Shown here: piece by piece, positions 18,001 to 21,000 of the stretch
How the letters are laid out: the number at the start of each line of letters is the position of its first letter
Numbering within the stretch: the first letter of the stretch is position 1
Source of the DNA: an uncultured Methanosarcinales archaeon
GTDB taxonomy: Archaea; Nanobdellota; Nanobdellia; Woesearchaeales; CAYMBN01
Direction: 5' to 3'
Length of the DNA stretch: 64,000 nucleotides
NCBI GenBank assembly: GCA_964388715.1
Contig: CAYMBN010000001.1
Location: 76,962-140,961, forward strand
Position numbers: made by a program

Positions 18001-21000
18001 ATGTGGGCCACAAAGAAGAATTGATATTGCACTCAAATTAATGGTACAAGGTTCTTATCAAAAATCATTTAATTCCAAAAAATCAATTGAAGCTGCACTT
18101 GCAGATGAGATAATCAATGCTTACAATCTAAGTCAAAGTTCATTAGCAGTAAGCAAGAAGTTGGAAATGGAAAGACAAGCTGATTCTAGTAGGTAATTGT
18201 ATTCTCTACCAAATAAATATTTATAAATGATTTTGAGTGTTATGTTATTATGGAAGGAAAATTAGAACAATATATTAGGAATTCTGAATTGACCAGTTTT
18301 GAAGAATATGGAGATGGTTGTTTCAAGATGAAACGCATGATGACTAATGGTGATTCTTTTACTTATGGAAGACGTTTTACATGGATGGCAGGTTATGTGG
18401 ATTTATTTCATATGATAATTGACCAGGAAAAAGCTATTAGGGTAATTAAGGATGAAAACAAATTAAAAATCACTCTTATTGATGCTGATGATGAAGAATT
18501 TCAATATGATGAGCCAGAAGCAGTAGAAAAAGCAGAAAGTTTGATGTTAGCAGCCAGATCAAAAATTGAAGACTCATATTTGACAGGTAAAAAAAATTAT
18601 GACATATTATCACAAGTACCTGAGGATATTGGAGAAGTTGTTGATTATTCTCCAAGCATTGTAACTTTTCAAAGCGATGACTGGAAGATCTATTACCACA
18701 AATGTGGACATAGTTATTTAGAAGTTTCCACTACCATAAAGAATAAGGATTTTACTATTAGACTAAATGAAACAATAGAGGGAGAAAAAGAAGGCATGTA
18801 TGAACTTACATTTGCCTGGGAAAAATTAGGATATCATTGTGGTAAATGGACTTACCCACTAGATTATTACACTCCAGAAGAAATAGAAAAAGTATTTTGT
18901 AATTTTTGGGCTTTACTTGGTCAAGCAGAAAAAGTTTTTAAGGGATTTGAACAAGAAAGAGCACATGATAAAGAAATTCTAAGAGAAAGAGAAAGAAAGC
19001 AAAGAGAACCTGATAGAAGAAAATTATTAGAAGAATTCTTAGCTCTTTAAATCACAGGAACATCTGGGTTGTATTTTAATCCGTAGATGAAGATGTGTTG
19101 CCAGAATAGATATCTTTTTCTTATGACACGTACTGCAAAGCCTGCTTCCTTGAAGAACTTCTTGATTGTTTCATCATCGTGGATCCATTCTATATTAGGA
19201 AGGATTCCAAAGAATTTGTCGTATTCAACAAAACAGATTCTGCCTGCTTCTGGAAGGATCTTGCTCATCTGTGACAGAACCTTTTTCATGTCTTGAATGT
19301 TGCTGATTGAACCTATTGAAACAATTGCGTCAACATTTTTTATTACTGGGTGTGTTCTTTCAAAATGTTTATCATCATGTAAGAATCTTACATTTGTATG
19401 GCCTTTTTTGTCTATTCTTTTTTTAGTAACTTTTAAGTTTTTTAATGAGATGTCTGTTGCATATACTTTTCCCTCATTTCCTACTTTAGCTGCTAAATCT
19501 TTTGTTAGTGTACCTACATTGCAGCCAAATTCATAGACTTTTTTATCTTTGATACTACCAAGTAAAGATATTATTTCTTTTCTTATTGAAGGAGGTGTTG
19601 TTAAGAAGTCGCCAATTACCATGAAAGGTGTCATCATGTCTTTAATGAATTGTGTGACTTTTGGATTATAATATACATTGACAAGTAAGTAGACTGGCGC
19701 GCCAACAATTATGAATGATAAACCAAGATTGAACAAAGCAAGAGCGCCTTTTTCATATATGATCCACATTACAATTAAACTTATGTTGAATAATATAATT
19801 ATTATTGGACCAATTTTGCCAAGAGGTGCTTTGTATGGTCTTATTATGTGTGGTTTTTTGTAACGTAGTACAACTAAAGCTAACATTACAACTGAATACA
19901 TGAAAAGTGCCATTGGAAGTAGTAATGAAAGTAGTGTTTGGTATGAACCAAAACCTACTATGATAAGGATTGAACTGATTATTGTCTGGAAAACAATTGC
20001 TTTATGAGGTGTTCCATGTTTAGGGTGGATAACTGACATGTGTGCAGGAAATAGTTTGTCTTTTGCTAATGCTAGGATTAATCTTGGAGCAGCTACTATC
20101 CAGCCTGCAACAGAGCCTATAATTGAAAGGTAAACAAGGATTGTAAATATGTCTGTGAATTTGGTGCCGTAGATAACTTTTGCAAGGTCTGACAATGGTG
20201 CAATTGAACCACCAAAAACACTCCATTTTATTGTTGATAATGATGCTAATACAAATATAAGGGAAATAATTGCAATTATTATTGTTCCAAGGATAAGTGC
20301 TTTTGGTACGTTTCTTTCTGGGTCATTTGTTTCTTCTGCTAAAAAGGATGTTGTTTCCCATCCAAAGAATGTTTCTGCAATGTAAAACAAAGCTACAAAA
20401 ATCATTGGGAATGCAAATGGAAAGAATGGTGAAAAGTTTGAAGGAGAGAATTGAAATAAACCTGGGACAAAGATAAGTCCAAGTGTGATCATAGTTATTA
20501 TACCAAATGCAACCAACATTGTTGCACTTGTTTTCATGCCACGATATGCCATGTAATTGAAAATCAGGATAAAGAAAAGGCATATTCCAATCTTAATAAT
20601 GTTTGCTGGGAATGGAAGTAGATATTGGATTGCACCTACAATTAACATTGCGATTGTTATGTTTCCTGCTAAAAGAGTTGTCCAACCAAGTATAAATGAA
20701 AATGCTCTTCCAAATGCTTGTTTTGTATATTCGTAAACACCTCCTGAGTATGGAAACATAGAAGCAAGTTCTGCAAAACACATTGAAATATAAATTCCTA
20801 TAACAGAAAGTATTGCCCATGATACCAATGAAGCAGGACCTGCATATTTTGCACCTATTGCTGGCAGAAAAAAGATGCCTGTTCCAAGAATAGAATTTAC
20901 TGTGATTAAAAGTAAGACAGGAAAACTCAACACTCTTTTTAATTGTGGCATATAGAGAATATATTATTTGTTATTTATAAGATTTGCTAAATTTTATGCA

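What a model noticed while it worked through the whole genome (the two positions that open the first line are those of the whole stretch)
19047..20951. An APC-type amino-acid permease is fused to a cytoplasmic SAM-methyltransferase, a gene form kept in most Woesearchaeale [...]
g00094 (C1 96008-97912, -, 634 aa) joins a complete APC-family permease (residues 8-403) to a class-I SAM-dependent methyltransferase domain (residues 457-585) in one frame. The same fused frame is found in about two thirds of sampled genomes of the order. A transporter welded to a small-molecule methyltransferase suggests that the imported substrate is methylated as it enters; no such transporter has been characterised.
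Evidence so far: pfam.tsv: AA_permease_2 8-403 (E 8e-55), AA_permease 13-403 (E 2e-33), Methyltransf_31 468-578 (E 4e-15), Ubie_methyltran 457-579 (E 6e-13). Six-frame search with residues 440-634 alone: 37 of 60 other genomes match at E<=1e-20; of the 43 matches outside this genome 41 lie in open frames of 502-862 aa (one with a TAG inside the match) and 2 in frames of 174 and 264 aa.
(Added by a program. Inside this text positions count along the whole contig: contig position 76,962 is position 1 of the stretch shown here. "Call 12" and the like, gene names such as g00115 and contig names such as C1 are that model's own, and its searches are not shown. The text may have been shortened before it was handed on; [...] marks where a part breaks off. 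The agent that wrote the report below was given it as the finding of a first reader that could run no searches.)

Follow-up and report, generated by a model that had tools for sequence, protein, structure and literature searches.

The report
Amino-acid transporter fused to methyltransferase domain
One intact gene of a small Woesearchaeota-type archaeon joins a membrane amino-acid transporter to a cytoplasmic domain built to bind the methyl donor SAM; the fusion is common in this order, unstudied, and more likely a built-in nutrient sensor than an enzyme that methylates everything taken up.

Summary
Window 19047-20951 (-) is one uninterrupted 634-aa frame: a 12-helix APC/SLC7-type permease followed by a class I SAM-methyltransferase domain. 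With the whole protein as query, 66 of 120 other genomes of the order carry one frame covering both domains, so the fused state in relatives is now shown by alignment, not by length alone. Outside the order I found one case.

The reading that cargo is methylated on entry is neither shown nor excluded. Against it for bulk cargo: this is the only hit among five amino-acid or peptide importer families searched in a 96%-complete genome. A derived sister form keeps the domain with a ruined SAM site and has gained a voltage-sensor domain. Another form adds a histidine-kinase-like ATPase domain.

My best reading (0.4) is a SAM-responsive regulatory domain on a general amino-acid importer. Cargo methylation is the main rival (0.3).

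No paper on this fusion turned up in four searches. This scan has noted the same fusion before on other genomes.

The parts
19047..20951 (-). Whole gene: 634-aa permease-methyltransferase fusion (stop codon at 19047-19049)
   Evidence: ORF list and translation; Pfam; AF2 model with mean pLDDT 86.1 and pTM 0.76
19668..20951 (-). Residues 1-428: APC/SLC7-type permease core with 12 membrane helices
   Evidence: AA_permease_2 at 8-403, E 1.2e-53. Hydropathy gives 12 helices. Foldseek matches LAT1, GkApcT, BasC, AdiC and ApcT at TM by target 0.80-0.86. PDB sequence hits are xCT 2.5e-37, LAT2 3.4e-31 and BasC 2.1e-29. The TM1 motif G-T-G (residues 23-25) and the TM6 motif F-G-W-E (196-199) are invariant or nearly so in 34 relatives.
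19560..19667 (-). Residues 429-464: conserved helical linker / N-terminal cap of the methyltransferase domain
   Evidence: Helices 430-446, 448-451 and 454-464 in the model. Y428, P430 and E448 are nearly invariant, and the consensus 'YYDPK..ND.LAY.TL.TE...LP' is shared by 34 full-length relatives.
19068..19559 (-). Residues 465-628: class I (Rossmann, seven-strand) SAM-methyltransferase core
   Evidence: Methyltransf_31, _12, _25, _11, _23 and Ubie_methyltran all above their cut-offs. Domain model pLDDT 86.8, pTM 0.85. VIA-align best match 3dh0, Z 20.2, rmsd 2.7 over 180 residues. Foldseek 3dh0 E 2.8e-12.
19512..19532 (-). Residues 474-480, motif I (E-F-G-C-N-V-G): the glycine-rich SAM loop, with Asn at the middle position
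   Evidence: Over the methyltransferase-domain hits aligned, G476 is kept in 266 of 272 and G480 in 263 of 271. The middle position is S 132, G 95, N 24. Both glycines are invariant in A1 and A3.
19452..19454 (-). D500: acidic residue at the end of strand 2 (ribose-binding position in class I methyltransferases; that role is recalled knowledge)
   Evidence: D or E in 237 of 279 sequences; H 16, N 13, S 11. It aligns with the D of the 'SIDIS' stretch in 3mgg.
19374..19376 (-). D526: acid after strand 3 (adenine-binding position; that role is recalled knowledge), followed by the family-specific R532-x-H534-P535 loop
   Evidence: D526 in 214 of 278, R532 in 209 of 281, H534 in 204 of 280. D526 is invariant in the 34 sequences of A1.
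16708..18196 (+). Context only: NusA-like KH protein, ribosomal proteins S12 and S7; convergent with the gene after one unknown ORF (18250-19050)
   Evidence: ORF list; Pfam KH_5 for 16708-17121. S12 and S7 are named from their sequences (recalled). The same S7/S12/NusA neighbourhood holds the stand-alone methyltransferase of G112.

Best explanation
The gene encodes a general amino-acid importer of the APC/SLC7 type. Its cytoplasmic C-terminal domain is a class I methyltransferase fold that binds SAM (and probably SAH), held under the transporter by a conserved helical linker. I think this domain works mainly as a built-in metabolic sensor. Occupancy by SAM, the direct product of imported methionine plus ATP, would adjust transport allosterically, as USP, RCK/KTN, CBS or c-di-AMP-binding domains do on other carriers.

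Shown: the architecture, the 12-helix topology, retention of the SAM-binding residues, conservation of the fusion, and its place in this genome's gene set.

Inferred: SAM binding itself, the docking of the domain on the carrier, the direction of any regulation, and methionine as a relevant cargo.
For: 1. Only importer found. It is the sole PF13520 hit in a 95.75%-complete genome. Liv-type (PF02653), Opp/His-type (PF00528), SDF (PF00375) and POT (PF00854) permeases were not found, while each search rang in 6 to 14 control genomes. Cargo of an only importer is needed unmodified.

2. SAM metabolism. The genome has a bacterial-type SAM synthetase and SAH hydrolase, but no MetE-type or MetH/homocysteine methyltransferase domain. 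Methionine must therefore come from outside, and SAM reports its supply.

3. Type B paralogue. Its clade (16 rows, SH-aLRT 100) is nested in the clade that holds the window's protein (96). It keeps the domain, but motif I and the strand-2 acid are degenerate in 10 of 17 sequences and altered in the other 7. It has gained an N-terminal voltage-sensor domain: the profile hits the KvAP sensor 1ORS at 3e-5, and Pfam Ion_trans matches 10 of 16 members. One regulatory input appears to have been exchanged for another.

4. Type C form. The 820-860-aa forms add a domain that the ESM Atlas places with HATPase_c (TM by query 0.68-0.71; feature score 0.97).

5. Precedents.
- SAMTOR is a class I methyltransferase fold that senses SAM (PMC10883374, passages read).
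- Archaeal amino-acid permease-USP fusions are known (PMC12159084, passages read).
- The APC-superfamily carriers KimA and NKCC1, which the full-length model also matched, carry cytoplasmic regulatory domains (recalled).

6. No operon partner. No conserved partner that would name a substrate appeared in 80 related loci.
Against: - The window's type keeps more than a bare SAM site. R532, H534, W589, W617 and K626 are each kept in 73-96% of the aligned domains and are lost together with the SAM loop in type B. This is what a catalytic or substrate pocket would look like.
- The nearest solved folds are small-molecule methyltransferases (3dh0, Coq5, RebM, PEAMT, ArsM).
- In G112 the methyltransferase persists alone, with intact motifs and no APC permease found. 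A pure sensor of the carrier should not do so.
- Of the 10 genomes with a fully degenerate type B copy, 9 also have a second copy I took to be type A from its identity and frame length (its motifs were not inspected). Of the 7 genomes with the milder B1 form, 6 have none. Some SAM-dependent activity may therefore be needed once per genome. Relatives are not independent, so this is only a hint.
- No binding, docking or transport was tested. I could not read the model's coordinates, and the complex predictor was not available.
Confidence: 0.4

Rival explanations
1. Coupled uptake and methylation. The methyltransferase is an active enzyme placed at the cytoplasmic exit of the carrier. It methylates one particular cargo as it arrives, an amino acid, amine or toxic analogue. 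That would trap the cargo, detoxify it, or make a needed methylated product.
For: - The SAM-binding residues are intact and strongly conserved in the window's type (G476 266/272, G480 263/271, D/E500 237/279), even in a very divergent clade whose permease is barely recognisable.
- Further invariant polar and aromatic residues sit in the loops that form the substrate pocket in this fold (the pocket location is recalled).
- The nearest structures are small-molecule methyltransferases.
- The linker is conserved, and the fusion is kept in 66 of 120 genomes.
- Tandem paralogues diverge unevenly between the two domains: in G202 the three copies score permease E 5e-157, 4e-144 and 6e-84 against methyltransferase E 4e-47, 6e-13 and 3e-41. 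This could reflect changes of substrate.
Against: - It is the only importer found among five families in this genome, so most cargo cannot be methylated.
- SAM is an expensive reagent for uptake (general knowledge).
- Type B keeps the domain without a usable SAM loop.
- No substrate-defining neighbour gene was found in 80 loci.
- No family-level match names a substrate: UbiE equivalogs score 39 bits against a cut-off of 216.
Confidence: 0.3
2. A membrane-tethered methyltransferase with a target of its own. The enzyme acts on something other than the cargo, such as a lipid head group, a membrane or surface protein, or the carrier itself. The permease serves as anchor or as co-regulated partner.
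For: - The stand-alone, motif-intact methyltransferase of G112 lies at the same S7/S12/NusA neighbourhood, and no permease was found in that genome.
- The fused gene often lies near pilin-like genes with class III signal-peptide-like N-termini (28-29 of 80 loci) and pilus-assembly genes (the gene names are my reading of the sequences).
- Genomes tend to keep at least one copy with an intact SAM loop.
Against: - The fusion is stable over deep divergence and the linker is conserved. This argues for functional coupling with the carrier rather than mere anchoring.
- Stand-alone forms are rare. Most short database entries are fragments or start inside helix 12.
- The neighbourhoods may be lineage synteny only.
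Confidence: 0.17
3. Artefact or decaying appendage. The join is an assembly or gene-calling error, or the C-terminal domain is a functionless remnant.
For: None found. Only one genome of 120 (G063) shows a broken copy.
Against: - End-to-end single frames occur in 66 of 120 other genomes.
- 69 database proteins carry both sets of Pfam domains.
- 72 of 148 representatives found with the methyltransferase part alone also match the permease.
- The methyltransferase domain is 45-55% identical to the best relatives, about as conserved as the whole protein.
- Contigs of two studies bridge the junction.
Confidence: 0.02

Closest known systems
APC-superfamily amino-acid carriers with solved structures (LAT1/SLC7A5, BasC, GkApcT, AdiC, ApcT)
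   Same: The same LeuT-type 12-helix core. Foldseek TM by target is 0.80-0.86. Sequence E-values are 2.5e-37 to 1e-20. The TM1 G-x-G and TM6 G-x-E motifs are kept.
   Different: The solved chains listed are of carrier length (about 430-560 residues), apart from one GFP fusion construct, and none is described with a methyltransferase domain. Identity is only 22-26%. The best NCBIfam model (TIGR00909, the '2A0306' amino-acid transporter subfamily) scores 198 bits against a cut-off of 557, so no named subfamily is met.
Carriers with fused cytoplasmic ligand-sensing domains: archaeal amino-acid permease-USP fusions; KimA (c-di-AMP); cation-chloride cotransporters
   Same: A secondary carrier of the same superfamily carrying a C-terminal cytoplasmic nucleotide-binding domain. 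USP fusions: PMC12159084, passages read. KimA with c-di-AMP and NKCC1 appear among the Foldseek matches.
   Different: The appended domain here is a class I methyltransferase fold. I found no paper that reports this fold on a carrier. The regulatory role of those other domains is recalled knowledge.
SAMTOR (eukaryotic SAM sensor)
   Same: A class I methyltransferase domain that binds SAM and SAH and signals methionine sufficiency, with no known catalysis and an altered GxGxG loop (PMC10883374, passages read).
   Different: SAMTOR is a soluble eukaryotic protein acting on GATOR1-KICSTOR. No sequence relationship was tested here. The resemblance is of principle only.
Aquifex aeolicus SAM-dependent methyltransferase 3DH0, and small-molecule methyltransferases (Coq5, RebM, PEAMT, ArsM)
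   Same: The closest solved folds to the C-terminal domain: 3dh0 at Z 20.2, rmsd 2.7 over 180 of 190 residues, E 2.8e-12, phmmer 2.6e-4.
   Different: Identity is 12-23%. The title of 3DH0 names no substrate. The matches form a flat list of generic class I enzymes, so no substrate can be transferred.
SLC9C1 (sperm Na+/H+ exchanger with voltage sensor and cNMP-binding domain): relevant to the type B sister form, not to the window's gene
   Same: Type B is also tripartite: voltage-sensor domain, solute carrier and cytoplasmic nucleotide-fold domain. SLC9C1 is described in PMC10620091 (I saw the abstract in the listing).
   Different: Different carrier family, different domain order, archaeal. 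The window's protein has no voltage-sensor domain: its frame opens only 4 codons before the ATG (638-aa frame).
Group translocation (PTS sugar phosphorylation) and the mmuP-mmuM permease/methyltransferase gene pair of E. coli (both recalled, no call)
   Same: These are examples of uptake coupled to chemical change, and of an APC permease paired with a methyl-transfer enzyme.
   Different: The PTS uses phosphoryl transfer and other folds. MmuM is a homocysteine S-methyltransferase fold (PF02574), which is absent from this genome, and it is a separate gene.

Membership tests
APC superfamily amino-acid permease (Pfam AA_permease_2 / AA_permease) | Profile match above the curated cut-off over nearly the whole model | tested here: met
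   PF13520: 183 bits against 27, profile positions 1-411 of 427. PF00324: 112 bits against 24.6.
APC superfamily amino-acid permease (Pfam AA_permease_2 / AA_permease) | LeuT-type fold with 12 membrane helices | tested here: met
   12 hydrophobic segments. AF2 model pLDDT 86. Foldseek to LAT1, GkApcT, BasC, AdiC and ApcT at E 3e-19 to 3e-13.
APC superfamily amino-acid permease (Pfam AA_permease_2 / AA_permease) | Transport of amino acids or amines | not testable with these tools
The substrate is unknown.
NCBIfam TIGR00909 ('2A0306' amino-acid transporter subfamily) and BcaP / ethanolamine permease equivalogs | Score above the curated cut-off | tested here: not met
   TIGR00909 197.9 against 556.8; BcaP 152.3 against 690; ethanolamine permease 124.7 against 381.75.
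Class I SAM-dependent methyltransferase | Profile match above the cut-off to class I methyltransferase models | tested here: met
   Methyltransf_31 52.5 against 27, Ubie_methyltran 47.7 against 20.1, Methyltransf_12 44.9 against 30, Methyltransf_25 42.5 against 27.
Class I SAM-dependent methyltransferase | Seven-strand Rossmann-like sheet | tested here: met
   Seven strands in the domain model. Z 20.2 to 3dh0, and 526 chains reach Z>=8.
Class I SAM-dependent methyltransferase | Glycine-rich motif I (GxGxG) after strand 1 and an acid at the end of strand 2 | tested here: inconclusive
   The window has G-C-N-V-G, with the outer glycines kept and Asn in the middle, and D500 is present. Active enzymes with a non-glycine middle residue exist (recalled), but binding was not tested.
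Class I SAM-dependent methyltransferase | SAM binding and methyl transfer | not testable with these tools
   This needs a binding and turnover assay.
UbiE/COQ5 quinone C-methyltransferases | Equivalog score above the cut-off | tested here: not met
   NF001244 38.9 against 216; NF001243 38 against 235; NF001240 37.3 against 378. Coq5 appears only as one of many fold neighbours.
Voltage-sensor-bearing 'type B' form of this family | N-terminal S1-S4 voltage-sensor domain of about 150 residues before the permease | tested here: not met
   In the window's protein the permease match begins at residue 8 and the open frame extends only 4 codons upstream. Type B sequences carry the extension.
SAM-sensing pseudo-methyltransferase (SAMTOR-like in principle) | Binds SAM/SAH without catalysis and changes a partner's activity | not testable with these tools
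   Only indirect support, from context and paralogues.

The most novel reading that the evidence does not exclude
Uptake by 'vectorial methylation'. The carrier hands a specific cargo directly to its own methyltransferase domain, so that transport and SAM-dependent methylation form one step. This would be a new chemical type of group translocation, confined to an order of DPANN archaea.
Probability: 0.25. Interest if true: 0.85.

Novelty: new variant of a known kind. Interest (0 to 1): 0.6.

Why it matters
Both parts are ordinary, but the combination is not. I found no description of a carrier with a methyltransferase-fold domain in four full-text searches. Public records call these proteins simply 'amino acid permease'.

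In these very small genomes the protein may be the main gate for amino acids. How it is controlled, or what it modifies, therefore bears directly on how DPANN archaea feed.

If the domain is a SAM sensor, it would be a prokaryotic, transporter-attached counterpart of SAMTOR. If it is an enzyme acting on cargo, it would be a new kind of group translocation.

The family also shows carriers collecting sensor modules (voltage sensor, GHKL-like domain), which makes it a natural system for studying how secondary transporters are regulated.

Tried and rejected
- **Complex prediction of the permease part with the methyltransferase part:** I also could not read model coordinates (one search shows no structure files). 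I therefore could not measure where the SAM pocket points.
- **Expression:** no RNA holder was listed for the gene (8 DNA runs from 2 studies). Nothing can be said on expression.
- **Split genes:** the apparent split in G056 is a contig break. Most short methyltransferase-only database entries start inside helix 12 or the linker, or at a contig end. Only G112 is a convincing stand-alone.
- **SAM import idea:** I considered that the carrier might import SAM for a genome without SAM synthetase. I rejected this because a bacterial-type MetK is present, although the archaeal type is not.
- **Conserved operon partner:** clustering the ORFs of 80 related loci gave no partner that names a substrate. 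The commonest real neighbours were a Dph2-type diphthamide synthesis gene (33 of 80; Pfam 1e-40), pilin-like genes (28-29 of 80) and S7 (12 of 80). A CBS partner gene noted earlier in the scan for another genome was not among the 25 neighbour clusters printed (the smallest of these covers 7 of the 80 loci). The four unnamed ORFs beside the gene in the window that I scanned with Pfam gave no CBS match.
- **Occurrence in Bacteria:** one related locus is labelled as a candidate division LCP-89 bacterium. It has 34% G+C and the same Dph2 neighbour as the archaeal loci, so I take it as a mis-binned or chimeric contig.
- **Substrate from fold or sequence neighbours:** the lists are flat and generic, so no substrate is assigned.
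- **Tree:** the careful tree search did not finish within the time limit. The quick tree is used. Its root is arbitrary, and the divergent clade sits on long branches.
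Full report
**The observation**

Window 19047..20951 on the minus strand is one ATG-started open frame of 634 codons without an internal stop.
- Pfam places AA_permease_2 on residues 8-403 (E 1.2e-53) and several class I methyltransferase models on residues 457-585. The best of these are Methyltransf_31 at 5.7e-14 and Ubie_methyltran at 1.7e-12, and all are above their curated cut-offs.
- A hydropathy scan gives twelve membrane helices ending near residue 424. 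The K/R-rich loops lie between helices 8/9 and 10/11. With the standard APC topology the C-terminal domain is cytoplasmic.
- An AlphaFold2 model built on 34 relatives has mean pLDDT 86 and pTM 0.76.
- Its membrane part matches LAT1, GkApcT, BasC, AdiC and ApcT.
- The C-terminal domain modelled alone (pLDDT 86.8) is a compact seven-strand class I methyltransferase. It is closest to the Aquifex protein 3DH0 (Z 20.2; E 2.8e-12). After that comes a flat list of small-molecule methyltransferases.

**The fusion in relatives**

I tested this with the whole protein as query.
- Of 120 other genomes of the order, 80 match at E<=1e-10. In 66 of them one frame covers both domains from end to end. This is a hand count. 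It includes the unpublished G111 and six genomes that have only the type B form.
- Three more genomes are cut by contig ends or are partial but still span both domains.
- One is broken, four are fragmentary or ambiguous, five have only an unfused permease of about 30% identity, and one (G112) has only the methyltransferase.
- Searching 5.8 billion proteins with the methyltransferase part alone returned 69 proteins. All carry both the permease and the methyltransferase Pfam families. Where they are named, they are called 'amino acid permease' of Woesearchaeota or Nanoarchaeota.
- An exhaustive HMMER search of 1.84 billion representatives gave 121 hits at E<=1e-10. Of the 148 new representatives listed, 72 also match the permease by phmmer. 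About eight further proteins of roughly 620 residues have a very divergent membrane domain with weak or no AA_permease_2 signal.

**Distribution**

In a sample of 301 genomes of the phylum (including this one), the methyltransferase part matched 107. These are this genome, 105 others of the same order (one of them, G308, unpublished) and one genome of another order of the same class, where the gene is also fused. The tool does not say how many of the 301 lie outside the order.

A scan of one genome per species of all prokaryotes found 208 relatives. The best 80 are labelled Woesearchaeota, Nanoarchaeota, or generic or doubtful names. The single 'LCP-89 bacterium' record looks like a mis-binned archaeal contig.

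**State of the methyltransferase domain**

In 34 full-length relatives, the two outer glycines of motif I, the acid after strand 3 (D526) and several family-specific residues (W589, W617, K626) are invariant.

The table gives the counts over 298 aligned domain hits (not de-duplicated; they include fragments and some free-standing enzymes).

| Residue | Kept in |
|---|---|
| G476 | 266 of 272 |
| G480 | 263 of 271 |
| D/E500 | 237 of 279 |
| D526 | 214 of 278 |
| R532 | 209 of 281 |
| H534 | 204 of 280 |

The window's own protein has Asn at the middle of motif I and Asn where most relatives have Tyr551. The domain is about as conserved as the whole protein. It is therefore under selection, and it very probably binds SAM. 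Nothing here shows catalysis.

**What the rest of the genome says**

The genome is 95.75% complete.
- The gene is the only AA_permease_2 hit.
- Liv-type, Opp/His-type, SDF and POT permease families were not found, although each search rang in 6 to 14 control genomes.
- There is a bacterial-type SAM synthetase and an SAH hydrolase.
- There is no archaeal SAM synthetase, and no MetE-type or MetH/homocysteine methyltransferase domain.

On these searches the organism must import methionine and probably most amino acids. This protein is the only recognised route among the five families tested. A carrier in that position cannot methylate most of what it brings in.

**What the paralogues say**

Before consulting earlier notes of the scan, I found that a group of frames of about 770-800 residues ('type B') has three parts.
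- A well-conserved permease.
- A methyltransferase-like domain of only 23-31% identity.
- An N-terminal extension of about 150 residues.

The extension has four hydrophobic segments. The last is a long helix with Arg at every third position. A profile of 16 such extensions hits the isolated voltage-sensor domain of KvAP (1ORS 3e-5, 2KYH 3.9e-5), then KvAP, HCN1 and Kv1.2-2.1. Pfam Ion_trans matches 10 of the 16 at E<=0.01 over profile positions 13-120, the S1-S4 part. Individual scores lie just under the Pfam cut-off.

In 17 type B sequences the first glycine of motif I is Asp or Asn. In ten of them the whole loop and the strand-2 acid are lost.

A quick maximum-likelihood tree of the permease parts was built from 74 rows, with SH-aLRT support and an arbitrary root. 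It makes type B one clade (support 100), nested with 13 ordinary fused proteins, among them the window's, in a clade with support 96. Type B is therefore derived. It gained a voltage sensor and let the SAM site decay, yet it kept the domain.

A third form of 820-860 residues adds a C-terminal domain. This domain is shared by five representatives and has no Pfam match. The ESM Atlas places it with histidine-kinase-type ATPase domains (TM by query 0.68-0.71; feature score 0.97).

Carriers that collect sensor modules are usually regulated carriers. That is the main reason I rank regulation first.

**Results against that ranking**
- The extra invariant residues of the window's type disappear together with the SAM loop in type B, as a catalytic pocket would.
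- The nearest folds are small-molecule enzymes.
- G112 keeps a motif-intact stand-alone methyltransferase at the same S7/S12/NusA neighbourhood, with no APC permease found.
- Nine of the ten genomes with a fully degenerate type B copy also have a second copy that I took to be the ordinary type from its identity and frame length, without inspecting its motifs. Six of the seven genomes with the milder type B form have none. This suggests that some SAM-dependent function is kept once per genome. Relatives are not independent, and the status changed only a few times on the tree.
- These points keep cargo-specific methylation (0.3) and an independent membrane-tethered enzyme (0.17) alive.

**Comparison with what is known**

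The carrier part is a member of the APC superfamily but meets no named subfamily cut-off. The C-terminal part is a class I methyltransferase by profile and fold, and it is not a UbiE/COQ5 equivalog.

The closest functional parallels are:
- archaeal permease-USP fusions (PMC12159084, passages read);
- the cytoplasmic regulatory domains of KimA and the cation-chloride cotransporters, which were fold matches (their regulatory roles are recalled);
- SAMTOR, a class I methyltransferase fold that senses SAM (PMC10883374, passages read);
- for type B, SLC9C1 (PMC10620091, abstract seen in the listing).

Four full-text searches found no paper on a permease-methyltransferase fusion. The one Woesearchaeota paper I checked mentions only Liv-type transporters (PMC11606122, 'find' passages). 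Supplements were not read.

**Earlier notes of this scan**

The same fusion has been reported from at least six other genomes, and the voltage-sensor form from two. I treat these as leads only. My own calls reproduce the fusion, the degenerate domain and the voltage sensor.

- the gene-content argument (only importer found; no methionine synthase domain found);
- the nesting of type B within the window protein's clade;
- the GHKL-like third form;
- the stand-alone copy in G112;
- the resolution of the 'split' frames.

**Verdict**

This is a real, conserved and undescribed domain combination. Its function is open. I rank it as a new variant of a known kind, a regulated or enzyme-coupled APC carrier, with interest 0.6.

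Noticed in passing
Not in the window: L100 819-3149 (+), L099 1648-3981 (-), L107 3586-5949 (+), L122-L134: Type B paralogue of about 770-800 aa. It has an N-terminal voltage-sensor-like domain (S1-S4, Arg at every third position in S4), an APC permease and a degenerate methyltransferase-like domain. The profile hits the KvAP voltage sensor 1ORS at 3e-5, and Pfam Ion_trans matches 10 of 16 members. On the tree it is nested within the window protein's clade.
   Followed up: yes
Proteins P0045, P0084, P0088, P0096, P0134; loci L102 783-3254 (-) and 3286-5793 (-): Forms of 820-860 aa carry a further C-terminal domain of about 190 residues. The five copies are homologous to each other and have no Pfam match. 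The ESM Atlas places the domain with HATPase_c/GHKL domains (TM 0.68-0.71). No HisKA domain was seen.
   Followed up: partly
P0075 residues 674-787; L101 1366-3927 (+): One 853-aa form instead carries a C-terminal DUF3108-like stretch (E 2.5e-8 on the extension alone).
   Followed up: no
L105 2039-2626 (+) (G112:C5): A stand-alone 195-aa methyltransferase with intact motifs. It starts at the linker helix and lies beside the S7/S12/NusA genes, as the fused gene does in the window. No APC permease match was found in that genome.
   Followed up: partly
L107 (G202:C5:71000-82000): 1758-3575, 3727-5952, 7057-9132, all (+): Three paralogues lie in tandem within 8 kb. Divergence is uneven between the two domains (permease E 5e-157, 4e-144, 6e-84; methyltransferase E 4e-47, 6e-13, 3e-41). 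Similar tandem sets occur in G346, G156, G064, G019 and G030.
   Followed up: partly
Related loci L014-L093, e.g. L025 3800-4462 (-): A Dph2-type diphthamide synthesis gene (Pfam 1e-40), itself a SAM-using enzyme (recalled), lies next to the fused gene in 33 of 80 loci. In L025, the one locus I inspected, it sits upstream on the opposite strand; orientation was not checked elsewhere. Pilin-like genes and pilus-assembly genes are also frequent neighbours. None of these is beside the gene in the window.
   Followed up: partly
L043 (record labelled candidate division LCP-89 bacterium; first 7.2 kb of a 306-kb contig): A fused gene with 51% identity in the methyltransferase part, 34% G+C and the same Dph2 neighbour as the archaeal loci. 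This is probably a mis-binned or chimeric contig rather than a bacterial copy.
   Followed up: partly
Proteins P0117, P0123, P0133, P0143, P0154, P0170, P0171, P0217, P0099, P0124: A very divergent clade of about 600-690 aa. Its membrane domain gives weak or no AA_permease_2 signal, but the methyltransferase domain keeps G-x-x-x-G and mostly the strand-2 Asp. It ends in a conserved aromatic tail (N-A-Y-Y-x-D-T-W-Y).
   Followed up: partly
G000 outside the window: C1:175830-176606 (+), C2:71582-72823 (-): This archaeal genome has a bacterial-type SAM synthetase and an SAH hydrolase. No archaeal SAM synthetase was found, and no MetE-type or MetH-type domain.
   Followed up: partly
window 18250-19050 (+), 20994-21392 (-), 21389-21736 (-), 21771-22460 (-), 22547-23326 (+): The five ORFs flanking the gene have no Pfam match above cut-off (only weak Svf1_C and ABM hits). 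Their function is unknown.
   Followed up: partly
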